Assembly: GCA_000092065.1 (NCBI GenBank)
Contig: CP000601.1
DNA from: Ostreococcus lucimarinus
Taxonomy: Eukaryota
Direction: 5' to 3' (one strand)
DNA: 64,000 nucleotides
Shown here: piece after piece, positions 6,746 to 56,135 of the stretch
Position numbering within the stretch: position 1 is the stretch's first letter
How the letters are laid out: each line of letters opens with the position of its first letter
Translations under genes and position numbers: made by a program
Notes under the pieces: generated by a model
The model's input: only the letters and a program-made list of their open reading frames with translations
Told to the model about the DNA's origin: nothing
Databases searched by the model: none

Positions 6746-6971
6746 CATAGCGATAAATTTTTTAAAGTACTATCCGTCACCCCGAAACGACGAAAGTCAC
6801 AGTGTTGTCGTGTCGCTTTTCCATCACGGACAATCGGGTATGGGAAAAAGTAAGGTTTGATGTCGACACATCTCTTCCTGCGGGTTTCGATCCCGCGGCT
6901 TCCAGATCTCTATCGGAGCAGCCGTCATATTCGACGGAGACTTTTTCCTAACAGTCTGACACTCTACCAGC
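6746..6971. repeat. 226-bp dispersed repeat, copy 2
   Basis: 98.7% identical to 811..1036 in the same orientation. Preceded by an A9 run (6721-6729). Confidence 0.9.
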
Positions 6972-7232
6972 TGAGTTAAGGAAGACTGTTTATGCATACG
7001 CACAACATCGCGGACATTCGACTGCCCATGCTCTTTATTTCGAGGCTTAACTCGGCGAGGTGGACGAATAATTGGTATTATACGTCGCTCGATGGTGGGT
7101 TTGCGACAGATCTTCGCGGCTTGACGCCGTCGATCCGCGATCGCGAATGTTACAGGTTGAGGGCTCGGGCGAGGACGTCGGTGGTTTTCGCGCGTTCGTT
7201 CGTTCGTCGTCACTCCGCGGTCGAATCCATCG

Positions 7233-14188: not shown

Positions 14189-14493
14189 CGTTCCCGTTCG
14201 CCTCGCGCGCGTCCTCGCGCGTCGTCGACGCGCGCGCCGTTCGATTCGCATTCGCTTCATTTTCATTTTTCGCATTCGCGCGCGTGACGGCGACGCCGTC
14301 GTCTCCCGCGTCGTCGTCGCCTCGCGTCGCGCGTCTCGGCGCGGGCGCGCGCGGGGACGGGCGATCGACGTCGCGCGGCGTCGGCGGCGACATCGCGCGT
14401 CTCCCGCGTCCTCGAGCGTCGCGTCGTGCCGACGCGCGCGCGCCGTCTCCGGGCGCGCGTGGCGCCCAAAGGTCACGTCGCGCGTCGAAAGTT

Positions 14494-14611
14494 CATGGCG
14501 GTTTCGCCCCGGTGAATACGACTTTGCGCGCGTCGTTCGCGTTTATGTATACATTCGGCACGCGTCGCGATCGCGGTTTCGCCCCGGTGAATACGACTTT
14601 GCGCGCGTCGT
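14494..14611. repeat. Tandem duplicated 38-bp element (GGTTTCGCCCCGGTGAATACGACTTTGCGCGCGTCGT x2, period about 79 bp) in the RRM-gene/CDC20 intergenic region
   Basis: Exact 37-38 bp match at 14497 and 14576. Confidence 0.8.
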
Positions 14612-14897
14612 CTGCGTGTCGTGACTTAGTATCACTGTCGTCGGAAGGCGTCACACACGGATTACGACGACCGCGCGACGCGACCGCGCGACGACCGACG
14701 CACCGCGACGCGCGTCGCGCGCGACGACGACCGCTCGACCGCGCCGATCGCGAGCGGACGCGCGCTTTAACGCCGAGACGCCGAGACGCGAACCGAAAAC
14801 GCGCGCGCCGACGTCCCACGCGCGAGAAAACGGACGGGAATTGCGTCTCGGGAGCGCCGGGACGACGACGCTGATTCGCGGCGACGGCGCGCGCGGG

Positions 14898-16631
14898 ATG
14901 GCGAACGGGGGGCATCGCGGCGTGGACGTGGCGCGGCGATTGATTTTCGAGGACTCGACGCGACGCGGGACGGGCGCGCGCGATGGGAGCGCGCCGGGGA
15001 CGCCGGAGAGGGAGGGGCGGGCGAGCGCGGGACGCGGCGCGAGCGCGGGACGGGCGAACGCGGGATACAGCGATCGGTACGTGCCGTCGAGGAGCGCGAG
15101 CGCGGGATTTCGGGGTGATTTTAGTATGCTGGAGGCGTGCGCGAGCGTCGGGGTCGGGGCGACGGGAGGGGGTAGGGGTGAAGAGATCGGCGGCGCGAGC
15201 GGCGGCGGCGGCGGACGAATCGGTCGGGACGGACGCGGCGACGCCGATCGGGGACGGGAGGGGGACGCGAATCGCGATGCTGATAGCGCGGGCGCGCACA
15301 GGGGTGATGGTGGTTCGGCGCGAGCGCACGAGCGCGAGGATACGAGCGCGGCGTACGGGGCGTTGTTGCGAAGCGAGTTGCTCGGAGACGTGTGTCCGCC
15401 CGAGGCGTACGGCGTGACGCCGCCGGCGACGCCGAGCGCGGCGAGGTACCGACCGCGGACGCCGGCGACGCCGATCGATGGATCGTCGTACTCGTACTCC
15501 ACTCCCGGAAGGAACTTGTTCAAATTTCGCGACGATGGCTCGTTCGGGACGATCGCTCGAGGCGAATCGCCGTACGCGTTGAATCCAGTCGGCGACGGCG
15601 ACGGACCGCTCGGCATGACGCTTTTATCGCCGCGCCGCCGCGCGCCGCGAAAGATCGCGCGTAGTCCGTTCAAAGTACTCGACGCGCCGGCGTTGCAGGA
15701 CGATTTCTACCTCAACCTCGTCGATTGGAGTTCGAGCAACGTGTTAGCCGTCGGTTTGGGAACGTGCGTCTACCTGTGGAGCGCGTGCACTAGCAAGGTG
15801 ACCAAGCTGTGTGAGCTCGCTCCTAACGATTCCGTCGCCTCTGTGGCGTGGACGCAGCGTGGGACGTATTTGGGCGTCGGCACGAACAGCGGCGAGGTGC
15901 AGATATGGGACGTGGCCAAGTGCAAAAAGACGCGAGCGATGCTCGGGCACCGCAGTCGCGCCGGGACGTTGGCGTGGAACTCGCACACGCTCTCGAGCGG
16001 GAGTCGCGATCGCGCCATCTTGAATCGCGACATTCGATCACCGAGCGATTACTCTAGCAAGCTTCTCGGGCATAAGAGCGAGGTGTGCGGATTGAAGTGG
16101 TCTTACGACGACCAACAGCTCGCGAGCGGCGGCAACGACAATCAACTCTTCGTGTGGAATTCGCACTCGACGTCACCAATCTTGCGATGCAGCGAGCACA
16201 CCGCCGCGGTCAAGGCCATCGCGTGGTCTCCACATCAACACGGCTTACTCGCCAGCGGCGGCGGTACCGCCGACCGATGCATTCGGTTTTGGAACACCGT
16301 CACCAACACGCCGTTGCAGTGCGTCGACACCGGTTCGCAGGTGTGCAACTTGGTTTGGAGCAAGAACGTGAACGAGATCGTCAGCACGCACGGCTACAGC
16401 CAAAATCAAATCGTCGTCTGGCGTTATCCGAGTATGTCCAAGCTCACCACGCTCACGGGCCACACCCTCCGCGTGCTCTTTCTCGCCATTTCTCCCGACG
16501 GCCAAACCATCGTCACCGGCGCCGGCGACGAGACGTTGCGCTTTTGGAACGTCTTCCCCGGCATGAAGTCCCCCGTCTCGGGCGCCGGCGACAACACCGT
16601 CAGCACGCTCGCGCGCACGAGCATTCGGTGA
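14898..16631 (+). CDS. APC/C co-activator of the CDC20/CDH1 (Fizzy) family
   Basis: C-box DRYVPSRS, seven WD40 repeats with the typical Fizzy core (DAPALQDDFYLNLVDWSS..., GHKSEVCGLKWSYDDQQLASGGNDN) and a C-terminal IR tail (…TSIR*). Confidence 0.9.
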   Translation: MANGGHRGVDVARRLIFEDSTRRGTGARDGSAPGTPEREGRASAGRGASAGRANAGYSDRYVPSRSASAGFRGDFSMLEACASVGVGATGGGRGEEIGGASGGGGGRIGRDGRGDADRGREGDANRDADSAGAHRGDGGSARAHEREDTSAAYGALLRSELLGDVCPPEAYGVTPPATPSAARYRPRTPATPIDGSSYSYSTPGRNLFKFRDDGSFGTIARGESPYALNPVGDGDGPLGMTLLSPRRRAPRKIARSPFKVLDAPALQDDFYLNLVDWSSSNVLAVGLGTCVYLWSACTSKVTKLCELAPNDSVASVAWTQRGTYLGVGTNSGEVQIWDVAKCKKTRAMLGHRSRAGTLAWNSHTLSSGSRDRAILNRDIRSPSDYSSKLLGHKSEVCGLKWSYDDQQLASGGNDNQLFVWNSHSTSPILRCSEHTAAVKAIAWSPHQHGLLASGGGTADRCIRFWNTVTNTPLQCVDTGSQVCNLVWSKNVNEIVSTHGYSQNQIVVWRYPSMSKLTTLTGHTLRVLFLAISPDGQTIVTGAGDETLRFWNVFPGMKSPVSGAGDNTVSTLARTSIR

Positions 16632-16920: not shown

Positions 16921-17778
16921 ATGTCCGCGCCGTCGTCCGGCGACGCCGCGCCCTCGACGAGCGGACGCGCGGTCTACGACGACGTCCTGCCCACGGCCTC
17001 GCCCTGGGGCGTCGTCGGGCGTCAGGCGGTGCTCGCCGCGGTGGCGGCGTTCAGCAAGTGCGTCCTGGACGTCGCCAACGTCACGACGACGACGAATCTC
17101 GCGACGTTCGAGCGCGCCATCGCGAATCGCGATCGAGCGAACGCGCAGGGATTACTCACGGTGTGCAATCACGTGAGCACGTTCGACGACCCGGGAATGC
17201 TGAGCGCGCTGATCCCGTGGTCGGTCTTCGTCGGCGAGCCGCGGCGCGGGGGCGTGCGGTGGACGCTGTGCACGGATGAGATTTGCGCGAAAACCAAGCT
17301 GCGAGAGAGCTTTTTCTTGTGCGGTAAGGCGCTGGCGATCAAGCGAGGCGGTGGGGTGGAGCAGCCGGCGATGCGAACGGCGGCGAATCTGTTACTGAGA
17401 GGGGATTGGGTGCACTTGTTTCCCGAGGGTCGCGTCAGTCGCGACGGAGAGTTGGGAACGATGCGAAGAGGCGTGGCGAAATTGCTGTGCGACGTCGAGA
17501 TCGCGGGCGGAACGCCGCCGATGGTGCTACCGTTTTGGCACTCCGGCATGTCCGACGTAAAACCGTACGGGCGATGGGAGATTGGCGTGGGTAAGCGCGT
17601 GCACGTTACCGTCGGCGAACCGCTCGATTTGACCGACTTGACGGCCAAGTGCGCGCGCTGCGAGAAGAACGCCAAGGCGCGCGACCATCTGCACGCGCAG
17701 ATCATGCGTCGCGTGGAGACCGCGTTGAAAGATTTAGAAGCCCAAAATAGGCGCGAGCGCGGCGACGCGTCCGCTTGA
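16921..17778 (+). CDS. Tafazzin-like phospholipid/lysophospholipid acyltransferase
   Basis: HxxxxD motif in a tafazzin context (CNHVSTFDDP; compare tafazzin NHQSCMDDP) and an FPEGRVS motif. Confidence 0.75.
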   Translation: MSAPSSGDAAPSTSGRAVYDDVLPTASPWGVVGRQAVLAAVAAFSKCVLDVANVTTTTNLATFERAIANRDRANAQGLLTVCNHVSTFDDPGMLSALIPWSVFVGEPRRGGVRWTLCTDEICAKTKLRESFFLCGKALAIKRGGGVEQPAMRTAANLLLRGDWVHLFPEGRVSRDGELGTMRRGVAKLLCDVEIAGGTPPMVLPFWHSGMSDVKPYGRWEIGVGKRVHVTVGEPLDLTDLTAKCARCEKNAKARDHLHAQIMRRVETALKDLEAQNRRERGDASA

Positions 17779-28066: not shown

Positions 28067-30365
28067 ATGACGCGCGGTGACGGCGCGCGCGACGGCGCGT
28101 CGACGCCGCGCGCCATCGGGCGCCTGCCGAGCGACGTCGTCAATCGCGTCGCCGCGGGAGAGGTGCGTCGAGGGCCGGCGCGCGACGGCGCGCGCGATGA
28201 GAGATTGAATGTTTGAACGTCAGCTCGACGACGGACGACGCGAACGCGCGACTGACGACGCGAGACGACGCGACGACCGAACGCGCGCGCAGGTGATCCA
28301 TCGACCGTCGAACGCGCTGAAAGAGCTGGTGGAGAACTCGTTGGACGCGGGCGCGAAGTCGATCGCGGTGACGACGAGGGAGGGCGGGAATAAACTGTTG
28401 CGAGTGCAAGACGACGGACACGGAGTGCGAATAGAGGACTTGCCGCTGCTGTGCGAGCGACACGCGACGAGTAAGATTGAAAAGTTTGAGGATTTAGCGC
28501 GATGCGAGAGCTTTGGGTTTCGAGGAGAGGCGCTGGCGAGCATGAGCTACGTGGCGCACGTGTCGGCGACGACGATGGCGGCGGGGGCGACGCACGCGAC
28601 TCGAGCGACGTATACGGATGGGAAGATGGATGCGGAGGGGGCGAAACCGATCGCGGGGGTGTTAGGAACTACGATTAGCGTGGAGAACTTGTTTTATAAC
28701 GTCGTGACTCGAAGGAAGGCGTTGAAGAGCGCGTCAGAGGAGTACTCGAAAGTGCTCGAGGTGTTGCAGAGGTACGCGGCGTTGCGAACGGATGTGGCGT
28801 TCACGTGTCGGAAGCACGGTGAGTCGCGAGCGACGTTGCACACTCCCGTGGCGCAATCGCGCGTCGAGCGGTTGCAGGCGATTTACGGTCCCACGGTGGC
28901 GAGAGATTTGAAGAAGCTCGACTTCGACAGCGAGCTGTCCAAGAAAAAGTTTGATTTCAAGCTGCAAGTGGACGGTTTAGTGAGCGGTGGGAATTATCAT
29001 TCAAAGAAGACGACGTTCATTTTGTTCATCAATTCGCGTTTAGTGGAGTGCGCGCCGCTCAAGCGCGCGTGTGAGTCGGTGTACGCGGCGATACTCCCCA
29101 AGGCTGAGAAGCCGTTTGTATTCATGCACCTCCGCCTGCCGTTTGAAGACGTCGACGTCAACGTGCATCCCACGAAACAGGAGGTGCACTTTCTGCACCA
29201 AGAAGCCATTGTGGAGTTGATTCAGTCCAAACTAGAGAAGATTCTTCTCGCGACGAATTCGTCGCGAACATTCACCGTGCAAACACTGCTTCCTGGCGCG
29301 GAGAAACTGGCAAAGAAGGATGACGAAAACGACGCCGAGCGAAGCGGCGACAAGGAAAATAGCGAAAAAGCGGACGAACCGCCGGCGTCGCAGGCGAAGA
29401 CGATGCGGACACAGCGCGAACGCGCGGGTGGTGATCACAAGCTCGTTCGCACGGATGCGAATTTAGCAGCGGGGAGTTTGGACGCGTACTTGCAGCGAGC
29501 GATGAATTCCGAGGGACGCGAACACGAGAAAATAGAAGAGGTTCGACGCGCGGTGAGAGAGCGTCGAGGACAGCGCACGGAACCCGAAGACACGTACGTG
29601 TGCGAGTTGACGTCTATTCGCCAGCTTAACACCGAAATCGCCAATCGCGCGCACAAGGAGCTCGGCGACGTGATTAAAAATCACACACTCGTCGGCGCCG
29701 TGGACGCGCGCAAAGGCGTGTGGTTACTTCAGCACCAAACCAAGCTCTTCATGGTGGACGCCGTAAAGCTCACCGAGGAAATGTTCCATCAAATGGCTTT
29801 GAAGAACTTCGCCAACTTTGGGTACCAATCGCTGCAAGATCCCGCGTCTTTGGCCGAACTCGCGCTGTGCGCGCTGGAGGATAAATTCGTCGACGACGAA
29901 GAGTGGGACGCGAGCGATGGCTCCAAGGAGGAAGTCGCAGAGAAAATCGCAGAGATGCTCGTCGAAAAGGCGGACATGCTCAAGGAGTATCTCGGCGTCG
30001 TCATCGACAAGGAACGGCGTCAGATCACCGGAGTGCCGTCGATGCTTCCCGGGTACGCGCCGGAAATCGGCAAACTTCCCGAGTTCGTCCTCGCCCTCGC
30101 CGAAGACGTCGATTGGACGAGTGAAAAAGAGTGCTTCGAAACCTGCGCTCGAGTCATCGGCGCATTTTTCGCCATGGACTGCTCTTTCCACGATCCGAAA
30201 GCCGAAGAAGGCGACGCCGAGTCCGACGCTCGTCGCGTCGCTCGCCTCTGCGTCTTTCCCGCGATGAAGCGCCGTCTCGCCCCGCCTCGTCGTTTCGCCG
30301 ACGACGGCACCGTCATTCAGATCGCGTGCCTCGAGCAGTTGTACAAAATTTTCGAGCGCTGTTAG
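28067..30365 (+). CDS. MLH1: DNA mismatch repair protein MLH1 (2 exons: 28067..28162 and 28293..30365)
   Basis: Exon 1 encodes MTRGDGARDGASTPRAIGRLPSDVVNRVAAGE and exon 2 VIHRPSNALKELVENSLDAGAKSI..., matching the MLH1 N-terminus (I.RL...VVNRIAAGEVIQRP.NA.KE..EN.LDA). GHKL ATPase motifs and an MLH1 C-terminal domain follow. Confidence 0.9.
28163..28292 (+). other. MLH1: Spliceosomal intron of MLH1 (130 nt, GTGCGT...CAG)
   Basis: Removing it joins ...AAGE to VIHRP..., restoring the conserved MLH1 N-terminal motif in frame. Confidence 0.85.
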
Positions 30366-30717
30366 TCGGTCCGCGTCGTCGTCGTCGCCCTCGAACGGCG
30401 TCGGCGTTCCGAATCGTCTCGCGGCGCGTCGCCCGGTCGTAAAGCTTGAAATCGTGAACCAACCAGCCGTTCGATTCAACCGACGCGCGTCGACCGCGCG
30501 CGCCTCGGTCGTCACTCCCGCGCGCGCCACCGGCTCGACGGACGGACCGACGCGACCGACGCGACCGACGCGCGCGTTCGAATCGTGCATGCGCGCCGCG
30601 CGTCTCGTCGCCGCGCGCGTCGCCGCGAGAACGCCGACGTCATCGCGTCGCCTCGCCGCTCGAAAACTCAAAACGACGACCCGCGCGCGCGACGCCGCGA
30701 TCGCCGAGCGAGCGAGC

Positions 30718-32702
30718 ATGACGACGGGCGAACGCTCGAACGCGTCGAAGCTCGCGGCGGTGCGAGAGGCGATGGCGAAGCGAGGGGTGCGAGCGGTCGT
30801 CGTGCCGTCGCAGGATCCGCACTTTAGGCGCGTCGGCGAAGCGAAGGCGAACGAACGAAACGAGGAACGACGACGCGCGCGACGGGAAAGACTGACGAAC
30901 GGGCGAGGGCGTGTTTTTGTGGGGAACGCAGTGAGTACGTGGCGGCGTGCTTCGAGCGACGACGATGGTTGAGCGATTTTACGGGGTCGGCGGGGACGGT
31001 GGTGGTGACGGACGCGGCGGCGTTGTTGTGGACGGATGGACGGTATTTCGTGCAGGCTGAAGACGAGCTGAGCGAGGACTGGACTCTGATGCGAAGTGGG
31101 GTGAAGGATGTGCCGGACGTGAAGAAGTGGTTGTGCGCGGAGGAGGCGGGACTGGCGTTTACCGGAGCCAAGGTGGGCATCGATCCAAACGTGCACTCGG
31201 TGAGCGAGGCGCGAGGTTTGAGAGAAGCGTTGAGCGCGTGCGGGATCGAGTTGATGAGCGTCGAAGAGAACTTGGTAGATTTGGTTTGGAGCGATCGTCC
31301 ACCGTTCCCGAAGACGCCGCTCAGAGTGCACCCGATGGAGTACGCGGGGAAGAGCGTGGCGGAAAAATTGGAAAACCTTCGAGAAAAAATGAAGGAAAAC
31401 GACGCGCAGAAGCTCGTCGTGAGCTCGTTGGATGACGTCATGTGGCTATGCAATGTTCGAGGCGGTGATGCACCGTGTAATCCGGTGACGTTGTCTTACG
31501 TCTTGGTGGGTGAAAACGACGCTTCGTTTTACGTCGACACGGACAAGGCGACGCCTGAAGTCGTGGCGCATCTCGCCGAGGCAAACGTGACGATCAAGCC
31601 GTACGAAGACATGGCCAAAGACGTGTATGCCGCGGCACAGCGCGGTGAGCGACTCTGGATGGACGTCGATAAGGTCTCCATCGCCATGCTCGAACAGGCT
31701 GAAGCCGGAGCCGCCGAAGCGCCCAAGGATGCGAAAAAGGTGAAGACGGAGAGCGCGCCGTCCGCCATCAAGGAGGGCACGTGTCCGGTCCCGATCGCAA
31801 AGGCGGTGAAGAATGAGGCCGAGATGGCCGGTATGGTCGAAGCCCACCTCATGGATGGCGCTGCGATGGCTGAATTCTGGTGCGCGATCGAGCGAGACGT
31901 CGCCGAGGGGCGCGCCATTGACGAGTACGAAGCTGGCGAGAGGGTCTTGGCGTGCCGAGCCAAGCAAAACGGTTTCTTCGAAGAATCGTTCCCGACGATC
32001 GCGGGTGAAGGTCCTCATGGCGCCGTGGTGCACTACCGTGCTTCGAAAAAGAGCGCGAGGGCTATCGGTAAGGACAGCTTATTACTCTGCGACAGCGGCG
32101 GCCAGTACGCGTGTGGCACGACGGATGTCACTCGAACGGTGCACTTCGGAACGCCCACCGCTCATCAAAAGGAGTGCTACACGCGCGTGCTCCAAGGTCA
32201 CATCGCACTCGACCAAATGGTTTTCCCTGTCGGCACGAAAGGTTTCGTTCTCGACGCCTTTGCGCGATCGCACCTGTGGGCCAACGGCTTGGATTACCGT
32301 CACGGCACCGGCCACGGCGTCGGCGCGGCGCTCAACGTGCACGAAGGTCCGCAAGGAATCTCTCCGCGTTTTGGAAACATGACGCCCCTTATGCCAGGAA
32401 TGATCTTGAGCAACGAGCCGGGGTATTACGAAGACGGTGCGTTCGGTATCCGCATCGAGACGCTTCTGCAAGTGAAGGAGGCGAAGACTGCGCACAACTT
32501 CGGAGACACTGGATTTTTATGCTTTGACGTCTTGACGTTGATCCCGATTCAAACGAAACTCATGGACTTGAGCATTATGAGTGAAAAAGAAATCGCGTGG
32601 GTGAACGCGTATCACGAAAAAGTTTGGCAACAAATTTCCCCGCGAGTGTCGGGGGAGACTAAAACGTGGCTCGAACGCGCGTGTGCAAAGATTTCCAAGT
32701 AG
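30718..32702 (+). CDS. Xaa-Pro aminopeptidase P (M24B; 2 exons: 30718..30827 and 30932..32702)
   Basis: Exon 1 ...VVPSQDPHF joined to SEYVAACFERRRWLSDFTGSAGTVVV matches the APP N-terminus (PSGDAHQSEYIA..DCRR.F.SGF.GSAGT). Creatinase_N/M24 core with metal ligands (HGTGHGVG, NEPGYYEDG). Confidence 0.85.
30828..30931 (+). other. Candidate GC-AG intron of the aminopeptidase P gene (104 nt, GCGCGT...CGCAG)
   Basis: This is the only splice that restores the conserved PH-x-SEY junction in frame. The donor is GC rather than GT, and the remaining donor positions match the GYGCGT pattern of the other introns. Confidence 0.55.
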
Positions 32703-32883
32703 GCGGCGTAGATTTACGTGTTTTAATTTGATGTTGAATTCGAGGTTGTTTTCGGCGAAAATTTGAATGCGTCTCTCGTTACAACTTTATTTTAGGATCA
32801 CATTCGTTCGTTGAACACAAAAGTATGGTACGACGTATTTTCTCACTGGGACTCTATACCGCTAAGATCAAGAAGCAAAGGCT

Positions 32884-34287
32884 TTAGATGGCCTTGTACT
32901 CAACCTTGGTGATCTTACCCAACATGACGGCGGTGTTACCGTCCAAGAAAGCGATGCGGGAAAGACCTTCGCACTTCTTGAAGGAGTCGACGACGAGCGG
33001 GTGGACCGGCTCGAAGACGCACTCGGCGACTTCGTTGGACTTCAACGACATCGGGGACTCGAGCTTCTTACCGCCGGTTTCCTTGCCAACCTTGAAGTTG
33101 AGCGCGGTCAACTTGCACGCGGAGCGGCCGCATCGGACGAAACCGATGGGGCTGTAGCCCGCCTTGAGTTCACCCGGAATGTCCAAGGTTTGGATTTGCG
33201 CGGTGAACTCCTTGCACGGGGCGAGGGAGGTGTCCTTCTTGTAGATCATCACGTCACCGGTGCGCGGCATGTTGAGCTTGTCGAGACCCTTGATGTTCAT
33301 ACCGACGTTGTCACCCGGCGCGGCGGCTTCGACGCGCTTGTGGTGCATTTCGACGGTGAACACCTTACCACCGCACGGGTTGGAGGAGGTGTGGGTCGGG
33401 AGGAAGACGACGTCTTCACCCGGCTTGACGAGACCTTGCTCGACGCGACCGGCGAGGACATCACCGACACCCTTGATCTTGTAGACACCGGAAATCGGAA
33501 GGCGCATGGCGGCTTCCGTGTTGCGGTCCGGCTTGTCGACCATGTCGTTGAGGACGTTGAGGAGGCAGTCGATGTGGAACTTCTTGCCGCCGCCCATGTA
33601 GTCTTCGACGTCGACGCCGTTCCACCACGGCATCTTCGCGGACTTGGACAACAAGTTGTCGCCGTTCCAGCCAGAGATCGGGAGGACCGGGACGCTCTTC
33701 TCGACGTAATCCTTCTTCCAGCCGACCTTGATCAACATGTTCTTCATTTCGTTGCGAATTTCTTCGTAACGCTCTTGCTTGTAGCCAGCCATGTCGCAAT
33801 CCATCTTGTTGATGCCGCAAATGAGCTGCTTGACGCCGAGCAAGTTGAGAAGACGCGCGTGCTGGCGCGTTTGGCCTTGGACTTCACCAGCCTTGTGGTT
33901 ACCCTTTTGGATGGCGACCGTGAAGTTACCGTCCGCCGGCACCATGAGAAGCGCCACATCGGCTTGCGCCGCGCCGGAAATCATGTTCTTGATGAAATCG
34001 CGGTGACCCGGGGCGTCGATGATGGTGTAGTGCCACTTGTCCGTGAAGAATTCCTTGGTCGTGCAAGAAATCGTCACACCACGCTCACGCTCTTCCTTTT
34101 GGCGATCCATGTAGAACGCGAACGCGAAAGAAGACTTACCGAGCGCATCGGCTTCGGCGCGAAGCTTTTCGAGTTCGCGCTCCGGGATACCCCCGAGCTC
34201 GAATAACAAGCGACCGGTCGTCGTCGACTTACCGGAATCGACGTGACCGCAGATCACGATGGAAAGATGTTCCTTGCCTTCAGACAT
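32884..34287 (-). CDS. EFL: Elongation factor-like GTPase EFL (an EF-1alpha paralogue that replaces EF-1alpha in some lineages)
   Basis: GHVDSGKSTT, DAPGHRDF and NKMD GTPase motifs, plus EFL-specific blocks (MVPADGNFTVAIQKGNHKAGEVQGQTRQHARLLNLLGVKQLICGINKMDCDMAGY). Very strong codon bias, consistent with a highly expressed gene. Confidence 0.93.
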   Translation of the reverse strand: MSEGKEHLSIVICGHVDSGKSTTTGRLLFELGGIPERELEKLRAEADALGKSSFAFAFYMDRQKEERERGVTISCTTKEFFTDKWHYTIIDAPGHRDFIKNMISGAAQADVALLMVPADGNFTVAIQKGNHKAGEVQGQTRQHARLLNLLGVKQLICGINKMDCDMAGYKQERYEEIRNEMKNMLIKVGWKKDYVEKSVPVLPISGWNGDNLLSKSAKMPWWNGVDVEDYMGGGKKFHIDCLLNVLNDMVDKPDRNTEAAMRLPISGVYKIKGVGDVLAGRVEQGLVKPGEDVVFLPTHTSSNPCGGKVFTVEMHHKRVEAAAPGDNVGMNIKGLDKLNMPRTGDVMIYKKDTSLAPCKEFTAQIQTLDIPGELKAGYSPIGFVRCGRSACKLTALNFKVGKETGGKKLESPMSLKSNEVAECVFEPVHPLVVDSFKKCEGLSRIAFLDGNTAVMLGKITKVEYKAI

Positions 34288-34901
34288 TGTGCGTTTATTT
34301 CAACTGTTTCGAGCCACGCGCGCATCGTCAGTCCCCCTTCCTCTCGTCTCGCCTCGTCCCGCGTCCAAACCTCCCGCCATCGCGCCGCCATCGGATCGCG
34401 ATCGTCAACCTCGCCCCCCCCCCTCGCTCGCGACCCTCGCGCGCGTCCCGCGCCGCCCGATCCATCGCGCGCGTATTCCTCCCGATCGTTTCCATCCGCG
34501 ACCGACGCCTCGCGCGTCGCATCGCGGCGTCACCGCGTCCGATCGTCGTCCGCGCGCCGTCCGCGATCGATCGTCGTCCGCGATCGATCGCGCGGCGCCC
34601 GCATCGCCTCGCCCTCGCGTCGTCGCGCGCCCTCGCGCGCGCGCCGCGACGCGCGCGAATATTTCCCACCGCCGCGTCCGTCGATCGCCGTCGCGCGCGC
34701 GTCGTTCGCCGCGCGCGGGCGCACCTTTGACCGTCGAAGAATGGCGCCGCCGCCGTCCTGGGGTCTTCGCGAGGATGCGTCGACGCGTGCGTTTCGTCGA
34801 CGGTTCATGACTCAAGAGTATGTGTCTTCGTATGGGTAAACAGTGTGAGTATCAGCAGAACGCCGCCCAGCCTCGACGGCCCGCGCGGCGGACGCCGCAG
34901 C

Positions 34902-37518: not shown

Positions 37519-39286
37519 ATGTCGCTCAAGTCCATCAACCCCAACGCCGAGCTCATGAACGCCGATGCCGCGCTGTTCATGAACATCAACGCCGCCAAGG
37601 GTCTCCAAGACGTGATGAAGACGAATTTAGGCCCGAAAGGGACGATCAAGATGCTCGTCGACGGTGCTGGAGGTGCGTGTACGATCGTTTCGTCGATACA
37701 TCGCGGTTTCGCGCGTCACGGCGGCGCGTGAGAGATGCGCGGTGACGGTGATCTGTTGGATTTCGCGCGAACGCGGCGCGGCGTTGACTCTGTTGACCGA
37801 ACGACTGACGGCGATGTTGAAATCGATGTGCGTAGGTTTGAAGCTCACGAAGGATGGGAACGTGCTGCTGAGAGAGATGCAGATTCAAAACCCGACGGCG
37901 ATCATGATCGCGAGGACGGCGGTGGCGCAGGATGATATCACCGGGGACGGGACGACGACGACGGTGCTCGTCATCGGAGAGTTGTTGAAGCAAGCGGAGC
38001 GGTATTTGAATGAGGGTTTGCATCCGAGAGTGATCGTGGAGGGATTCGATGTGGCGAAACGCGAGTCGCTGAAGTTTTTGGAAACGTTCAAGCGCGCGGC
38101 GCCGGGTGTGGAAGCGCCGGATCGAGAAATGTTGTTGTGCGTGGCGCGCACGGCGTTGCGAACAAAGTTGCGGGAAGAGTTGGCTGATAAGTTGACGACG
38201 ATCGTCGTCGACGCTGTGTTGTGCATCGCCAAACCGGAAGAGTCGATCGATTTGCACATGGTGGAGATCATGACCATGAAGCATCAGACGGATGACGAAA
38301 CCAAATTGATTCAGGGTTTGGTCCTCGACCACGGGGCGAGACATCCGGATATGAAGAGATACGTGGAGGACGCGTTCGTGTTGACGTGTAACATCAGCCT
38401 GGAATACGAACGATCGGAGGTGAACTCGACGTTCATGTACACCGATGCGGAACAGCGCGAGAAGATGGTCGCCGCCGAGCGCGCGTACACCGATGAAACC
38501 GTGCGCAAGGTGATCGCGCTCAAGAAGCAGGTGTGCGACGGCAACGACAAGGGTTTCGTCGTCATCACACAAAAGGGGATCGACCCAATCTCTCTGGACA
38601 TGCTCTGTAAGGAAGGCATTATGGGACTTCGTCGCGCCAAGCGCCGAAACATGGAGCGTCTCGTCCTCGCATGTGGTGGTCAATGCATCAACTCTGTTGA
38701 GGAACTCTCGCCGGAAATTTTGGGCCACGCCGGCGAAGTGTACGAGTACGTCTTGGGCGAGGAAAAGTACACTTTTGTGGAAAAAGTCGTCAACCCGACG
38801 TCGTGCACGGTACTTTTAAAAGGCTCGAACGATCACACCATCGCACAGCTCAAGGATGCGGTGCGAGATGGCTTGCGGGCGGTGAAGAATGTGTTGACCG
38901 ACAAGGCCGTGGTTCCGGGCGCGGGTGCGTTTGAGATGGCCTTGAACAAGCACTTGAAGGAGAACGTCACCAAGATGGTCGAAGGTCGCGCGAAACGCGG
39001 CGTCGAGGCGTTTGCGGAAGCCATGCTCGTGGTCCCGAAGACACTCGCGGAGAACAGCGGTTACGATCCGCAAGACGCCATCATCGACATGCAAGAGGAG
39101 CACGACAGAGGCAACGTCGTCGGTTTCGATATCAGCATCGGCGAGCCCTTCGACCCCACCATGAGTGGTATCTACGACAACTTTCTCGTCAAACAGCAAA
39201 TTCTGCACTCTGCGCCCATCATCGCCACGCAGTTACTCTGCACGGATGAGGTTCTCAGAGCGGGCGTGAACATGCGCAAGCGATGA
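37519..39286 (+). CDS. CCT6: T-complex chaperonin subunit zeta (CCT6; 2 exons: 37519..37672 and 37836..39286)
   Basis: Exon 1 [51 protein letters not shown], joined after a G codon to [40 protein letters not shown]..., aligns colinearly with CCT6. Confidence 0.9.
37673..37835 (+). other. CCT6: Spliceosomal intron of CCT6 (163 nt, GTGCGT...GTAG)
   Basis: The splice restores ...[15 protein letters not shown], which is conserved in CCT zeta. Confidence 0.85.
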
Positions 39287-49324: not shown

Positions 49325-52300
49325 GTGCGAGCGCGTCTCGCGCGGGCGTCGCGCGCGCACCGCATTTCGCGACGGCGGTCGATGCGGGCCCCGTCGCGCG
49401 CGCCGTGCGCGTCCGCGCGCCCGGAGGCCGGCGTCGTCGACGCCCTCGATGATCTCGCCGCCGTCGACGCCCGCGCGTGCGGCATCGGCAAGCTCACGAT
49501 CGCGCACGACGACGACGACGACGACGCGCGAGGTCTCCGCCATCGCGACCGCGGCGCGTTCGCCCTCGATTTGCGCGCGTGGTCGTTCACCGCGCGCACG
49601 CAGCCGGTCCGCGCGCTCGGGGCGTGCGCGCGAGACGCGTCCGTCGACATGCGCGTGCCGTTCAGGGACGAATACGAGCGACACAGGGCGTCGCGACCGG
49701 ACGAACGCGCGCCGCGAGGGGCGAGTTGGCGCATCCATCGAGTGCGAGGATGGCGCTTCGACCTGCGCGCGCTGTACGAGGAGGTGAAAAGACGCGGTGG
49801 CGCGGACGCGATCGATGGAAATCAAGGCTGGCGCGAGGTCGCGGAGGCGATCGGGGCGCACGGACGCGGATGCGCGGCGGGACACGCGGCGAGAGCGCTG
49901 CACGGGGCGTGGCTGGAGGCGTTCGCGCGCGACGCCAAGCGAAGAGAAGACGCGGTGAAGAGCGCGCAGTTCGACGCGGTGAAGGGAGAGATCGAACAAG
50001 ATGACGCGCTGGCGATCGATGCGCTGTGTGGGCTCGAATTTGGGGCGTCGGGCGCGCCCGAACGGCGAGTCAAGGTGGAAAATGTGCGTAATTCGTGCCA
50101 TATCTTCTTCGCGCGGGACCGGGATGACGGCGAATCGCACGCGTTCGCGGCGCGTGCGACGCGCGCGCGCGATGATGGGCGTCGCGATGACGTGCGACTG
50201 ACTTTTACGGCGCGTGTTTTCGCGACGCAGGGCCTCGATCTCGTCGCCTCGCAGCTCGCGGACGCGCCCGAGGGCGACGCCGACTGCGACGTGTGCGGCG
50301 CGAGCGGGAACGAAGACGCGATGATCCTGTGCGATGGGTGCGATCGAGGGTGCGTATACGACAATGCCACGCGAGAACGCGCGCGTGAAAATTATCTCGA
50401 TCGTTCGGACGCGCGTTCGGGGAGAGAGAGCGCTCGCGCGGCGCGCGAGGGCGCGGCGAACGCGCGCGTGGGCGACGGTTAGACGTGGGGTTTAGAGGCG
50501 CGCGGGGGAGAAGGAGCCGCGAAGGAGCGACGAGACTGACGAATGATGCGCGCGTAGGTCACATATGTACTGCTTAACGCCGAAGATGACTGAAGTGCCG
50601 AGTGGAGAGTGGTTTTGTGGACGATGCGAAGAGATTGACGCGGAGGTGGAGCGATTGAGCGCGGATGAAGGGACGCAGTTTACGCTCGGCGATTTCAACG
50701 AGGCGTGCATAGAATTTGATACGGCGTTCTTTGGCGAGGACGCCAAGCGAACTGGGATCGATATGCAGGTGATTGAGGAGTGTTTCTGGCGAATGGTTGA
50801 AGATGCGAGCTCGGTGGATGATGTTTGCGAGGTCAAATGCGGCACGGCGATTGACACGACAAAGTACGGAAGCGGGTTCCCGAGACACGGCGAAGCGCTT
50901 CAGGTAAAGATTGACGGCGTGAGCCCGGAATCTATCAAGCGCTGGTCAGAGTCGAAATGGAATCTCAACAACGTCGCGCGCGCGAGTGGGGAAAAGTCGT
51001 CGCTACTGGGCGCGTTGAAGGATGACGTGGCGGGCGTGACGACGCCATTCTTAGAAGTCGGAAGCACGTTTAGTTCCACGACTTGGCGTCGAGAAGAGCA
51101 TAACATGTACAGTATCACTTACAATCACTGGGGTGCCGCGAAACTGTGGTACTGCGTGCCGGCGAGTGCAGCGGACAAGTTGGAAGAATGCTTCCAGAAG
51201 GTGATGCCCGACGTCTACGAGGCGCACGTCAACGATTTGGGAAGCGTCTTTACGATGCTCTCGCCGAGCTTCTTGATGAGCGCGGGAGTGCCCGTGCACA
51301 CGTTGGAGCAATTCCCAGGAGAATACGTGGTGACGTATCCCGGGGCGTACTACGCGTCGTTCAACTGTGGATTGAACTGCACGGAGAGCGTCAACTTTGT
51401 GCCCGCTGACTGGCTCCCAGAGGGCTCGGCGAGCGTGGAGAGAAACCGATCGTACGCCAAGCGTTCATTGTTTAGTCACGACGAGTTGGTTTGCAGAGTA
51501 GCAAACAATCCTAGTTCGAGCATAGCGCCGCACTTGTGGCCCGAGATTGCGCGCTTGTACGCTGAAGAGGCAAACGGTCGCGCCGAGCTTTTCGCGTCTG
51601 GCGTGACGCGCAGCGCGCAAATGACGTCAGCAGACGACGACGACGACGACGATGGCTGCGAAAAGCCTCGTAAAGTACGATCTAGGTTTGACGATGCATC
51701 GAACTCTGGATCCGATGAGTGCGTTGTTTGTCGACACATTTTGTACTCGTCTGGCGTCGGGTGCTCGTGCGACGAGACGCGCAAGGCGTGCTTGCGACAC
51801 GTCAACGACTTGTGCAAATGTGCGATGTCGAAGAAGACGATGTTTTACAGAGAAACAGTGGCTGATTTAGAAAGTCTGGTGAAGAAGACGGAGAAGGCGC
51901 TTTCTCAGAAGGAACTAGCCAGCTTAAAATCCAAGCACAGCGACTTGGACTCAGTCACAGTGAACAAGAATCTCGTCAAGAAGGCTCAGGCTTGGGTGAA
52001 ACGAGTGGGCGAAGAGCTCGTCAAACCACCTTTGCCGCCGCTGGACAAGATGAGAAATTTACTCGCTGCGGGTGAAGAGTTTATTTGGGGTGGTGCTGAT
52101 ATGAAGGCGGCTCGAGAAGCGTACACTCGCGTGACGAACGCCGTCGCGTGGCAGACGAGTCTTGTGGCGCTGAAGCAAAGGCTTGGATCCAGTGCTGGTG
52201 CCGAGGCCGCGCACGATGACGCTGGTGAAGCGCGATTGAGATTGAACAGACTAAAAGAGCTCCTTGACAACCCACCGGTACCGATGCCTAAGGCTGATAC

Positions 52301-55300
52301 TCAACCTTTCCGCGATTTGCTCGCGGCGGGCTTGAAATTGGAGGAACGCATCAAGGCGGCTCTCGCCGAGGTACCGAATCCATCTCCTCGCGCTTGTACG
52401 ACGCTTCAAACTGAAGCGAATAAGTTTGGTGTGGAAGTCCCTTCATATAAAAAGCTGAAGGACGTCATCGTTAGAGCAGGCGCGTGGTCCACGAAGGTGC
52501 GCGGCGCGCTTCCAGGACGACGACAACTCCCGCCGCGCGAGGAACTAGCGAATGCTCGAGAGATCGAGGCGTTATACGAAGAGGCGCATGGATTACCCGT
52601 TCAGCAGAGCGAACTCTTGACTTTGCGCAAATCTTTAGAAGAGTTGAATTTTTGGCGCGCAAAGTCTGAGTCGCTGTTCGTCGCCAAGGTTGACGTGGAA
52701 GAAGCCGAGGCGCTTCTCAAGGAGGGCATGGCGTTGTCAACAAAACTCGACGAGGTCGACAGACTAGCCGATCAAATCAAAGCTGTCAAAGTGTGGGCCG
52801 ATCATGCTCGAGCGAGTGATTATCCGGGAGCAAGAGTGACGGATTTGCACATGCTTCTCGTCGAGGGTGAAAAGTTTAGCGTGCGAGTGGACGAAGTCGA
52901 GTGGTTGCGAAACCGTATCGTCGTCCGGGAGCTGGCAGAGAAATTGAAGGACATGGTTTCATCGAAGAAATATCCGCTCGCCGAAGTCGAAGCGGCCGTG
53001 CGGGCGGGTAACGAGTTCCTCGACTCCGAAGATAAAGAGGTTGCCCCAGATGAAGAAGCGCTGCTGGCGCAGTGCGAGAGCCACATCAACGCGGCGAAGA
53101 AGTGGAACGAGCGCGCGGCGGTGATGCTCAAATCTCTCGATAGTAAGGACCGACCGTCACTCGAAGACGCCGCGTCGCTCATCCGCGAAGGAAGCTCGAT
53201 TCCAATCTTTCTGAATGGATTCGACGTGCTTTCAGAAGCGGTCAATGTAGCCAAGTCTTGGTTGGATCGTGCACAACCTTGTTTGAAGGGAAAGCAGCTC
53301 ACTCGTCGCGGTGTGTCAAATCCGATTCCGCCGCTTTCCGAGGCGCAAGAGCTCATGAAAGAGTCTTCGAACTTGAAATTGTTTGTCAAGGAAGTTGAAG
53401 CTTTGGAAGAACGCGTCGAAGCCGCAGAAGAGTGGGACGTGGACGCGAAGGACGCCATCGAGCGCTGGCGAGAAGACGGCGCCGAGGTGACGTTGACCGA
53501 GCTTGAACTTTCGCACGAAGACTTTGGATTAGAATTACCAGCCATGGAGACAGTTCGCATTCGTTTAAAGTCGCTCAAGTGGGAAGAACGCGTCGCTAAG
53601 ATCATTGCACCCAAGGCGAAGCTCGTCGAGGACACCGTTTTGGACGAGCTCAGGGAAGAAATCGACGTGCTTCAAGACTTGAAAGAGGATCTTGTCGCTG
53701 AAATCATGAAACGGTACACGATTGTGGACGAATGGCGCAAGAAAGCGGATCGTTTGCTCGATCCTCCTCTCCTTGAAGACGGTCGATTGGCTCCGAGTGC
53801 ATCACCGGAGGAAATAGACGCCCTCATCGCCGAAGGCAAGGCACTTCCCGCTGACGTCTCGAAGGTAGAAGACCTCGAGGCGTCGTTGGCGGATCACGCA
53901 CAGTGGGTCGACACCGTTCGTAAGTGCTTGAACAGTGTCGCTGAAGGTCGATCTCGCCCTTCGATTGACGAATTATACGATCTTCTAGCGGAGGTGGAAG
54001 ATTTGACCTTCAAGTGCTCAGAGAGACAAGCGCTCACAAATGCGTGCAACGCCGCCACGGCGTGGACGGAGAGGCTCAACGCGTTGCTCTGGGCAAACGA
54101 TCAGGGTGAAGTCAAACAAGAAAAAACGCTTATCGAAATGTTGAGCAATGTTCTTGATTCCATCAAAGCTGGTGTGGAAGACATCACCGGGACTGGCGAA
54201 CCGCCGGAGACGGAGGAGGGTTAGTTCTGCCTTTGTCGACAAGCTGGAGGAATTCAAATGGTTGGATGTGATGATTGCGGTGACTGGTATCACTTAAAAT
54301 GTATCAATGTGACGCCTACTATGGCAAAGACGATGCACAATTACATCTGTCCGCCATGCATCGCGAAGAGTGGCAAGGCGAGCGCACTCTCGTTGGATAC
54401 GTATCGCTCGGTGCATCGCACCAATCGCCCAAACGTCATGCTTTTGCGAGAACTCCTCGGTGAAGCGCAGCGATTTCCTGGAGAAGTGCCAGAAGAAGCC
54501 GTGTTGAATCAAGTCATCAATACTCACGACGCGTGGCGATTGGAAGTACGAAAGACTTTGCATAGAAAGAGTATGAAGGAAGCACACGACAACGCCATCA
54601 GTCAAGCTTCGAAGATTGCCCAAGAAGCAGCGATGAGAGAATCTGAGGAACGCACACGACGAATCGCCGAAGCGTCGCTCGCGGCGACTGCAGAGAACCC
54701 CAATCCTCCAGCTTCTCTCACGCCATTACAGCAAGTCATGCTGATGGGTCAAGCTGTCACGTTCGCCGCAACGCAGCGCACGCACGCGTTGAACATTTCG
54801 CCGTGTTCGCAGGAGATTTCAGATGTCGTCACAAAGCAGCTCGGGCAACTTCAACAGCTCGCCATGCAACTCGCGATGTGCCAAGCTCAAATTCACATGG
54901 CTCCAGTTCGGTCTAGGCCCCACATCCTCCACGTCTTGATGATGCAGCAACAGCATCTAAAGATGACAAACGAGCACGAGGAAGAGCTGGCAAATGTTGG
55001 CGCTAGCAACTGGCTCATGGAAGCGACTCTGCAACTATCTGGAATGTCTGGCATGATGCCGCCGCCGACGGCGCAAGACACCGGCAAAGAACCTTCAACA
55101 TCCACGGGTCATGGTAGTCCAAGCGATATGTCTGCTCAGTTGAAGACGAACGAACCGATGATGGTTCCGCAGCAGTTCATGTTGCAACCGGCCATGCCAT
55201 CGCTTGTCGGCGACGCGTCTGGAATGCCCAAGCAAGAGATGGATTACACGTATGACATTCCTCGAAAAGATAATGTCGATCCAGCGCTGCAAGTGTACGC

Positions 55301-56087
55301 GGGCATGAAGGGTGCTCTGGCGATGGAGCTGGAACCTGTTGAGGAGACGCTCGCGTTGATGCGCGAAGTGTGCGGTCCGGCGTGGAGAGAACAAGCCACG
55401 CGGCTCATGACTGGTGCGCCGTTCCCGAGGTTGATCAAGCTTCACGAGCTCAAGGAATCTGCCATGGCTGCTGGTCTTTGCCCTGGTGCCGGCATTGATC
55501 CTTTGGCCGATCGCGCGCACGCGTTGGAGGTTGCTGGACAAATCTGGCTCGAACGCGCCGCCGCCGTCGTGCAAGACAAAACGATTCCTATCGAGGCGGC
55601 GCAGTTGCTGCTTCAAGAGGGTCGATCTTTGCCTTTATACTTGAAGGAGGAGCTCGAGGAGTTGGGAGAGCGATGCGAACTGTATTGCGTTTGCCGAAGC
55701 GCGTACGACGCTCTCAGGCCGATGATTTGCTGCGATCGATGCGATGGTTGGTTTCATTACGAGTGCATCGGCATGCAGTCGCCGGCGCCGGGCGAGGAAG
55801 ACGAAAACGCCGAAAACGTCAAGTTTGCCTGCCCAGAGTGCTGCGCGGCGCAAGGTATTCCGTACGTTCCGTTCCGTCCAGCGCCGAAGGACACGGACAA
55901 AGCGCCGGAGCGAGCCGCGCCTCCGCCGGCTGAAGAAGCTCCGGAGCCGCCAAAGACGGAAGAAGAAGCGAAGCCGCCCGCTAAACCAGAACCGGAAGTC
56001 GCGGACAACAAGAAGAAACGAAAAACGGTGGAGCCGACTCCGCCTGCTAATAAAAGTACCTCTAGTCGCAGCAGAAGACGAAAGTAG
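49325..56087 (+). CDS. KDM5: KDM5/JARID1-type JmjC histone demethylase (ARID-PHD1-JmjC-C5HC2 ZnF-PLU1-PHD2-PHD3), interrupted by one clear intron (50350..50556) and an in-frame TAG at 54222..54224
   Basis: ARID block FDLRALYEEVKRRGGADAIDGNQGWREVAEAIG. PHD1 is split by the intron (CDVCGASGNEDAMILCDGCDRG | SHMYCLTPKMTEVPSGEWFCGRCEE). JmjC core HNMYSITYNHWGAAKLWYCVP...FNCGLNCTESVNF, then a C5HC2 zinc finger. Downstream PHD fingers FCLCRQAGGIQMVGCDDCGDWYHLKC...CPPC and CVCRSAYDALRPMICCDRCDGWFHYEC...CPEC. Confidence 0.8.
50350..50556 (+). other. KDM5: Spliceosomal intron of the KDM5 gene (207 nt, GTGCGT...GTAG), splitting PHD1
   Basis: Splicing gives CDGCDRG-SHMYCL, a canonical C-x4-H-x2-C PHD spacing, in frame. 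Confidence 0.8.
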
Positions 56088-56135
56088 TTCTCTAGATTTA
56101 CAACATTTGACACAATAAACAACAACTTCAATAAT

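What the first reader, a model, noticed from the sequence alone, without database searches (positions are those of the whole stretch)
30828..30931. Probable GC-AG intron in the aminopeptidase P gene
Joining ...VVPSQDPHF to SEYVAACFERRRWLSDFTGSAGT... reproduces the aminopeptidase P N-terminal motif exactly (PSGDAHQSEYIA..DCRR.F.SGF.GSAGT). Only the boundaries 30827|30828 and 30931|30932 do this in frame. The donor there is GCGCGT rather than GTGCGT, a non-canonical GC-AG intron. If real, it shows that GC donors are tolerated within the GYGCGT context in this GC-rich genome.
Basis: inference. Interest (0 to 1): 0.5.

Follow-up and report, generated by a model that had tools for sequence, protein, structure and literature searches.

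The report
Real GC-AG intron, misplaced in annotation

Summary
The window is from Ostreococcus lucimarinus CCE9901. The gene is Xaa-Pro aminopeptidase P (XP_001421129.1 / UniProt A4S6Q1).

The sequence is as described. Exon 1 ends ...CAC TTT AG at 30827. The intron 30828-30931 begins GCGCGTC, carries the species' extended branch motif GACTGACG (30890-30897) and ends CGCAG.

The public protein is exactly the rival canonical model: a GT-AG intron at 30832-30935, giving HF-RR-YV. The GC-AG model gives HF-SE-YV. S-E is invariant in 116 of 116 homologues and in the human and worm structures.

The strongest evidence is a 3,039-base contig from an independent sequencing run (Logan SRR28369218). It joins 30827 directly to 30932. 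It is otherwise identical, apart from 1 SNP, to metagenome contigs that carry the intron, so it is almost certainly spliced RNA. Its 669-aa product is on record. The GT-AG equivalent is not.

Five independent genomic contigs from two haplotypes all read GC, so this is not a base-call error.

The intron is absent from every related alga examined, so it is probably a lineage-specific gain.

GC donors in an AG|GYGCGT context are already documented in the sister genus Micromonas. This is a correct but ordinary finding. Its practical value is a correction to a RefSeq/UniProt entry.

The parts
30589..30717 (+). In-frame upstream ATG plus 43 codons. Possible N-terminal targeting presequence that is not in the public model.
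   Evidence: The 669-aa product called on L008 starts here. The extension is kept in frame, with a 4-codon indel, in the type-B strain. It resembles the R/A/S/T-rich presequences of relatives.
30718..30827 (+). Exon 1 of the aminopeptidase P gene as annotated (ATG 30718). Ends ...CAC TTT AG, phase 2.
   Evidence: Encodes KLAAVREAMAKRGVRAVVVPSQDPHF, which matches homologues.
30828..30931 (+). GC-AG spliceosomal intron, 104 nt
   Evidence: Exactly this segment is absent from contig L008. It evolves faster than the exons and carries indels that are not multiples of 3.
30828..30834 (+). 5' splice site AG|GCGCGTC (consensus AG|GTGCGTG; C instead of T at +2)
   Evidence: Consensus from PMC2483917. 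Identical to the MLH1 intron donor GTGCGTCG except at +2. Conserved in 5 contigs.
30890..30897 (+). Branch-site motif GACTGACG. Presumed branch A at 30895, 36 nt from the 3' splice junction.
   Evidence: The motif is found in 66.5% of EST-confirmed non-chromosome-2 introns.
30914..30918 (+). T-run whose length varies (4 to 7 T) among environmental contigs
   Evidence: Frameshifting length changes are tolerated, so the segment 30908-30931 is non-coding.
30927..30931 (+). 3' splice site CGCAG|T
   Evidence: All five window introns end in YAG.
30932..32702 (+). Exon 2 (T GAG TAC ... TAG stop). Encodes the rest of the M24B aminopeptidase P.
   Evidence: Pfam PF01321, PF16189, PF00557 and PF16188 on relatives.
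30832..30935 (+). Intron as placed in the public annotation (GT-AG, shifted by 4 nt). Judged wrong.
   Evidence: The product HFRRYV is exactly XP_001421129.1. It is contradicted by L008 and by residue conservation.

Best explanation
Window 30828-30931 is a U2-type spliceosomal intron with a GC 5' splice site, in the Xaa-Pro aminopeptidase P gene of Ostreococcus lucimarinus.

The pre-mRNA is cut after ...TTTAG (30827) and rejoined to TGAGTAC... (30932). The lariat forms at the A of GACTGACG (about 30895). This restores the conserved HF-S-E-YV sequence.

The C at +2 costs one base pair with U1 snRNA. It is tolerated because every other donor position (-2A, -1G, +1G, +3G, +4C, +5G, +6T) matches this species' unusually strong consensus AG|GTGCGT. 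This compensation step is inferred from general knowledge of GC-AG introns and was not tested here.

The public model (XP_001421129.1, A4S6Q1) forced a GT-AG pair 4 nt downstream at both ends, so it carries R-R where the real protein has S-E.

The intron is specific to the O. lucimarinus lineage.
For: Shown:
- (1) Contig L008 (Logan SRR28369218_66516) aligns to window 29604-30827 and 30932-32749 with exactly the 104 nt missing. Its 669-aa product with HFSEYV is on record. The HFRRYV equivalent is not.
- (2) L008 is 100% identical over 1,820 nt, and differs by 1 SNP over 1,221 nt, from metagenome contigs L006 and L007, which contain the intron. L008 is therefore best read as the spliced RNA of the same genotype.
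- (3) S-E is present in 116 of 116 homologues and in human XPNPEP1 (3CTZ) and C. elegans APP-1 (4S2R). A family HMM scores SE at 155.0 bits, RR at 148.3 and the 8-aa insertion at 141.7.
- (4) The intronless syntenic orthologue reads CAC TTT AGC GAA TAC. The GC-AG spliced sequence reads CAC TTT AGT GAG TAC, which differs only synonymously.
- (5) The donor GCGCGTC matches the EST-derived consensus GTGCGTG at +1 and +3 to +6, and the branch site GACTGACG is the consensus (PMC2483917). The other window introns (MLH1, CCT6 and two in a PHD-finger gene) have GTGCGT donors, ACTGAC branch sites 18-37 nt from the 3' end, and YAG acceptors.
- (6) Five independent genomic contigs from two haplotypes keep GC.
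- (7) The intron diverges about 12% between haplotypes, against about 3% for the exons. Its length is 101, 104 or 105 nt.
- (8) Positive control: the annotated CCT6 intron is likewise recovered as a spliced Logan contig.
Against: - The library type of SRR28369218 could not be checked, so L008 is inferred rather than proven to be RNA.
- There is only one spliced contig. There are no read counts, so a minor GT-AG isoform cannot be excluded.
- A junction-pattern scan of JGI metagenome contigs found nothing. A search with the N-terminal protein sequence found only intron read-through ORFs.
- Pfam Creatinase_N does not discriminate SE from RR.
- Both candidate donor/acceptor pairs are equally conserved between the two haplotypes.
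Confidence: 0.93

Rival explanations
1. The public annotation is right: a canonical GT-AG intron at 30832-30935 (donor CGC|GTCGGC, acceptor GTGAG|TAC) gives a protein with HF-RR-YV.
For: It is in frame, has the same 104-nt length and uses canonical dinucleotides. It is the deposited RefSeq/UniProt model. Both of its sites are conserved between haplotypes.
Against: - The donor matches the GTGCGT consensus at only one of positions +3 to +6. The acceptor is GAG, and a CAG lies 4 nt upstream of it. All five window introns use YAG.
- R-R replaces residues that are invariant in 116 of 116 homologues. The family HMM score drops by 6.7 bits.
- The spliced contig L008 shows the other junction. The 669-aa RR product is absent from a collection of 15 billion proteins.
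Confidence: 0.03
2. L008 is genomic DNA from an allele that lost, or never had, the intron. The evidence would then be an intron presence/absence polymorphism rather than a transcript.
For: The run type is unknown. L008 starts inside the neighbouring MLH1 gene and carries no poly(A) tail.
Against: - L008 is essentially identical to contigs L006 and L007, which carry the intron.
- All five DNA contigs from two haplotypes have the intron.
- L008 ends 47 nt after the stop codon, as a short 3' UTR would.
- Even if this rival were true, a precise deletion of 30828-30931 would still mark these as the intron boundaries.
Confidence: 0.05
3. The GC donor is used with the first downstream AG (30906-30907). 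This would give an 80-nt intron and an 8-residue insertion (HF-RACFCGER-SEYV).
For: It is in frame, and it is the first AG after the branch site.
Against: - That AG is only 11-12 nt from the branch A and is a GAG. A similarly close AG is skipped in the MLH1 intron.
- The segment 30908-30931 varies in length by 1, 2 and 3 nt among strains.
- No homologue has the insertion, and the HMM score drops by 13 bits.
- L008 lacks the segment.
Confidence: 0.01
4. The C at 30829 is a sequencing or assembly error, and the real donor is GTGCGT.
For: A single T-to-C change would produce it.
Against: The C is present in the window and in four independent assemblies from different samples and two haplotypes.
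Confidence: 0.005

Closest known systems
GC-AG (U2-type) spliceosomal introns, as documented in the sister genus Micromonas (donor AG|GYGCGT; 25.6% GC donors in M. pusilla CCMP1545, 1.5% in M. commoda RCC299)
   Same: Same donor context, AG|G[C]GCGT. Same class of branch motif (NCTGAC / GACTGACG). Same history: GC donors were missed by first-generation gene predictors that required GT (PMC4815162; PMC3879977).
   Different: Different genus. I found no paper reporting GC donors in Ostreococcus. Most Micromonas GC donors sit in repeated introner elements, whereas this intron has no detectable copies in the 64-kb window.
Canonical O. lucimarinus non-chromosome-2 introns (5' GTGCGTG, branch GACTGACG; Irimia and Roy 2008)
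   Same: Length about 100-200 nt. Identical branch motif and spacing (36 nt here, 18-37 nt in the window's other introns). YAG acceptor. Donor positions +3 to +6 identical.
   Different: C instead of T at donor position +2. That study removed non-canonical introns by eye, so such cases were not counted.
Public gene model XP_001421129.1 / ABO99422.1 / UniProt A4S6Q1
   Same: Same gene, same start codon and same stop. 624 of 626 residues are identical.
   Different: The intron is shifted 4 nt downstream at both ends, giving R-R instead of S-E at residues 37-38. The model may also lack a 43-residue N-terminal extension.

Membership tests
U2-type GC-AG spliceosomal intron | Precise removal from RNA between a 5' GC and a 3' AG | tested here: met
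   L008 joins 30827 to 30932. It is identical to intron-bearing genomic contigs elsewhere. The RNA nature of the run is inferred, not verified.
U2-type GC-AG spliceosomal intron | Apart from +2, the donor matches the species' U2-type 5' splice-site consensus | tested here: met
   TAG|GCGCGTC compared with AG|GTGCGTG: -2, -1, +1 and +3 to +6 all match.
U2-type GC-AG spliceosomal intron | Branch-site motif at a suitable distance upstream of the 3' AG | tested here: met
   GACTGACG at 30890-30897, 36 nt from the junction. Other window introns have 18-37 nt.
U2-type GC-AG spliceosomal intron | Splicing restores an open reading frame colinear with homologues | tested here: met
   HFSEYV restored. 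S-E is present in 116 of 116 homologues. The sequence is colinear codon for codon with the intronless orthologue.
U2-type GC-AG spliceosomal intron | Lariat formation at the predicted branch A; dependence on U1/U2 | not testable with these tools
   Needs lariat sequencing or biochemistry.
U12-type (minor spliceosome) intron | Donor /RTATCCTT and branch site TCCTTAAC | tested here: not met
   The donor is GCGCGTCG and no TCCTT occurs in the intron.
Introner element (repeated intron family, as in Micromonas) | Many sequence-similar copies in other introns of the same genome | tested here: inconclusive
   The 64-kb window shows no similarity beyond low-complexity CG repeats and the 11-nt branch motif. 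The whole genome could not be searched.
Canonical GT-AG intron as annotated (30832-30935) | The RNA junction and the protein are consistent with GT...AG boundaries | tested here: not met
   L008 has the other junction. The RR product is absent except as the annotation itself.
M24B Xaa-Pro aminopeptidase P (host gene) | Creatinase_N, Creatinase_N_2, Peptidase_M24 and Peptidase_M24_C domains, with homology to XPNPEP1 | tested here: met
   All four Pfam domains are precomputed on the near-identical protein (99% identity) P0001. The N-terminus hits 3CTZ at E = 3.5e-26 and PF01321 at 59.7 bits.

The most novel reading that the evidence does not exclude
The intron is a recent gain in the O. lucimarinus lineage. 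It is absent from all six closest relatives and from three Micromonas-like sequences, whereas the neighbouring MLH1 intron is shared. It may have been born with, or quickly acquired, a GC donor.

If so, it could be one visible member of a larger, unannotated set of GC-AG introns in Ostreococcus, possibly introner-like. The 2007 gene models would have shifted these systematically onto nearby GT-AG pairs, leaving small local errors in many deposited proteins.
Probability: 0.3. Interest if true: 0.4.

Novelty: new member of a known kind. Interest (0 to 1): 0.22.

Why it matters
The result corrects a RefSeq/UniProt protein (XP_001421129.1, A4S6Q1). The deposited model replaces two universally conserved residues (S-E) with R-R, and it may also miss an N-terminal targeting peptide.

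It shows that the very strict splice signals of this intron-poor alga still tolerate a C at donor position +2, as in Micromonas.

Gene models built with GT-only predictors in Ostreococcus may hide more such cases.

It does not change any concept. GC-AG introns make up roughly 1% of introns in most eukaryotes and are well documented in this algal class.

Tried and rejected
- **Junction scan.** An exact scan for either spliced junction in JGI metagenome contigs gave 0 hits.
- **Annotated protein look-up.** The annotated protein could not be located on a contig with exon structure.
- **N-terminal protein search.** It returned only relatives and ORFs that read through the intron, and no spliced product. 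P0129 (704 aa) looked like a spliced product but is a read-through in a contig with one extra T.
- **Pfam.** Creatinase_N gives 59.7 bits for both SE and RR, so it is uninformative.
- **Literature.** Searches for GC-AG in Ostreococcus found nothing specific.
- **Repeat family.** The intron was searched against the window for introner-like copies. Only CG-rich low-complexity matches turned up.
- **A second GC-AG intron in the window.**
  - The candidate at 14233(-) has a better GT donor at 14159 (GTGCGC).
  - The EF1A 5'UTR intron has a conserved AAG|GTGCG donor.
  - GACTGACG at 17433-17440(-) was judged a probable chance match, because the flagged coding ORFs there lie on the + strand. About 4.2 copies are expected by chance and 7 were found.
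- **False positive.** The motif hit GTGCGT...CTAAC...CAG at 15764-15857 lies inside continuous CDC20-like coding sequence.
- **Population variation.** It does not separate the GC-AG and GT-AG models, because both pairs of sites are conserved.

Full report
**What is in the sequence.** On the + strand an ORF opens at ATG 30718 and reads MTTGERSNASKLAAVREAMAKRGVRAVVVPSQDPHF. It runs up to ...CAC TTT AG at 30827. From 30932 a second frame reads (AG)T GAG TAC GTG... = SEYVAACFERRRWLSDFTGSAGT... and continues for 590 codons to the TAG at 32700-32702. The 104 bases between them start GCGCGTCG and end GGGAACGCAG.

One claim is too strong. An enumeration of donor/acceptor pairs found 94 in-frame combinations nearby. 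Two matter:
- A canonical GT-AG pair shifted 4 nt downstream at both ends: CGC|GTCGGC at 30832 and GTGAG|TAC at 30935. It is also 104 nt and gives HF-RR-YV.
- The same GC donor paired with an earlier AG at 30907. This gives an 8-residue insertion.

**Organism and public annotation.** An exact-sequence look-up showed that the GT-AG product (HFRRYV, 626 aa) is the deposited protein of Ostreococcus lucimarinus CCE9901: XP_001421129.1 / ABO99422.1 / UniProt A4S6Q1. The 626-aa GC-AG product is not in a collection of about 15 billion proteins. The finding is therefore a proposed 4-nt correction of a public gene model. My reconstructions of two neighbouring intron-containing genes reproduce the deposited proteins exactly. 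These are MLH1 (intron 28163-28292, XP_001421130.1) and CCT zeta (intron 37673-37835, XP_001421126.1). This validates the way I read introns in this window.

**Direct evidence for the junction.** ORF callers on a spliced transcript would start at the in-frame upstream ATG (30589). I therefore looked up the 669-aa products of both models. The GC-AG version (…HFSEYV…) is on record (P0170, Logan assembly of run SRR28369218). The GT-AG version is not.

The contig that encodes P0170 is L008, 3,039 nt. It aligns to window 29604-30827 and 30932-32749, with exactly 30828-30931 missing. A 2-nt AG ambiguity allows three placements of the gap. Only the GC...AG placement has spliceosomal ends.

L008 is 100% identical over 1,820 nt, and differs by one SNP over 1,221 nt, from metagenome contigs L006 and L007, which carry the intron. 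L008 also ends 47 nt after the stop codon. The simplest reading is that L008 is the spliced mRNA of the same genotype. I could not check the library type of the run, so this step is inferred. Even if L008 were DNA, a precise deletion of these 104 nt would mark the same boundaries. As a positive control, the annotated CCT zeta intron is recovered in the same way as a spliced Logan contig (SRR847308).

**Indirect evidence: protein conservation.**
- All 116 homologues that cover this region have S-E at the two disputed residues. So do human XPNPEP1 (3CTZ: PSGDAHQSEYIA) and C. elegans APP-1 (4S2R).
- A profile built from the 116 homologues scores SE at 155.0 bits, RR at 148.3 bits and the 8-residue insertion at 141.7 bits.
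- A syntenic relative (MLH1 / aminopeptidase P / EF-1alpha in the same order, 76% identity) has no intron here. It reads CAC TTT AGC GAA TAC, against the GC-AG spliced CAC TTT AGT GAG TAC. The differences are synonymous only.

**Indirect evidence: splice signals.** Irimia and Roy (PMC2483917) used 319 EST-confirmed O. lucimarinus introns outside chromosome 2. They reported the 5' consensus GTGCGTG (4.8 bits), ACTGAC in 87% and GACTGACG in 66.5%. They excluded non-canonical introns by eye.
- The donor here is GCGCGTC, a match at +1 and +3 to +6. The branch site is exactly GACTGACG (30890-30897), 36 nt from the 3' junction.
- Four other window introns show GTGCGT donors, ACTGAC 18-37 nt from the 3' end, and CAG or TAG acceptors. 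MLH1 and CCT zeta are confirmed by exact match to the deposited proteins. One PHD-finger intron is confirmed by motif continuity. The second PHD-finger intron is only probable.
- The MLH1 donor GTGCGTCG differs from this donor only at +2.
- The annotated donor GTCGGC matches one of the four positions +3 to +6. Its acceptor is a GAG that lies 4 nt after a CAG.

**Not a sequencing error; the segment is non-coding.** Five independent genomic contigs all read GCGCGT. They are the window, L001 from a Logan run, and L005-L007 from JGI metagenomes, and they represent two haplotypes. The haplotypes differ by about 12% in the intron and about 3% in the flanking exons. The type-B haplotype has a TGA in the exon-1 frame inside the intron. 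The intron is 101, 104 or 105 nt long. Its T-run (30914-30918) has 4, 5, 6 or 7 T in different contigs. This rules out coding use of 30908-31, and so rules out the 30907 acceptor as the main form.

**Evolution.** None of six close relatives (73-79% identity) or three Micromonas-like sequences has an intron at this site. Their proteins are uninterrupted ORFs through PSQDPHFSEYV. The relative in L003 does share the MLH1 intron at the same position: GAG|GTACGA...TGACTGACGA...CGCAG|G. The aminopeptidase intron is therefore most simply a gain in the O. lucimarinus lineage, older than the split of its two haplotypes. No similar sequence occurs elsewhere in the window, so there is no sign of an introner family. 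Only 64 kb could be searched.

**Comparison with what is known.** GC-AG introns are a well-known minority class of U2-type introns.
- In the sister genus Micromonas, RNA-seq showed 25.6% GC donors in CCMP1545 and 1.5% in RCC299. They were largely absent from the first predictions because the predictors required GT (PMC4815162).
- The donor motif was written as AG|GYGCGT (PMC3879977).
- I found no paper reporting GC donors in Ostreococcus.

This is a new, previously misannotated member of a known kind.

**Verdict.** Observation confirmed and interpretation supported (confidence about 0.93). Interest is low (0.22). The practical value is a correction to a public protein record and a hint that other Ostreococcus models may carry the same kind of 4-nt-type shift.

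Noticed in passing
window 30589-30717 (+): An in-frame ATG 43 codons upstream of the annotated start adds MRAARLVAARVAARTPTSSRRLAARKLKTTTRARDAAIAERAS. The extension is kept in frame, with a 4-codon indel, in the divergent type-B strain. It resembles the R/A/S/T-rich presequences of relatives (P0002-4, P0007-10). The real protein may be 669 aa with an organelle-targeting peptide.
   Followed up: partly
window 30914-30918 (+): The T-run inside the intron has 4, 5, 6 or 7 T in different environmental contigs. In some contigs ORF callers then read straight through the intron (P0129, P0167).
   Followed up: yes
window 28163-28292 (+): The MLH1 intron (GAG|GTGCGTCG ... GACTGACG ... GCGCAG|G) contains the ATG at 28209. 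Prokaryote-style ORF callers use that ATG, so metagenome databases hold a 718-aa MLH1 instead of the real 722-aa protein. An AG 8 nt after the branch A is skipped.
   Followed up: yes
window 32884-34287 (-) and 34305-34724 (-): The EF-1alpha gene occurs twice on the ~530-kb chromosome, at about 153 kb and 375 kb on long contigs. The copy in this window has a ~400-nt 5'UTR intron. Its branch site GACTGACG is at 34326-34333. Its donor AAG|GTGCGC is at 34724 and is conserved in the type-B strain.
   Followed up: partly
window 6872-6985 (-): Rfam tRNA match of 114 nt (49 bits), probably an intron-containing tRNA. ARAGORN reported no tRNA in the window.
   Followed up: no
window 50547-56843 (+): Three long ORFs (50547-54221, 54225-56084, 56088-56843) lie in one reading frame, separated only by single stop codons, in a lower-GC stretch. 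They could be one large gene with short stop-containing introns, or separate genes.
   Followed up: no
window 15764-15857 (+): A perfect-looking GTGCGT...CTAAC...CAG 'intron' lies inside continuous CDC20/Fizzy-like coding sequence. It is a false positive, which shows that motif-only intron calling is unsafe in this genome.
   Followed up: yes
window ~14500-14612 (-): A ~39-nt sequence (acgacgcgcgcaaagtcgtattcaccggggcgaaaccgc) is directly repeated about 70 nt apart, upstream of the gene on the minus strand.
   Followed up: no
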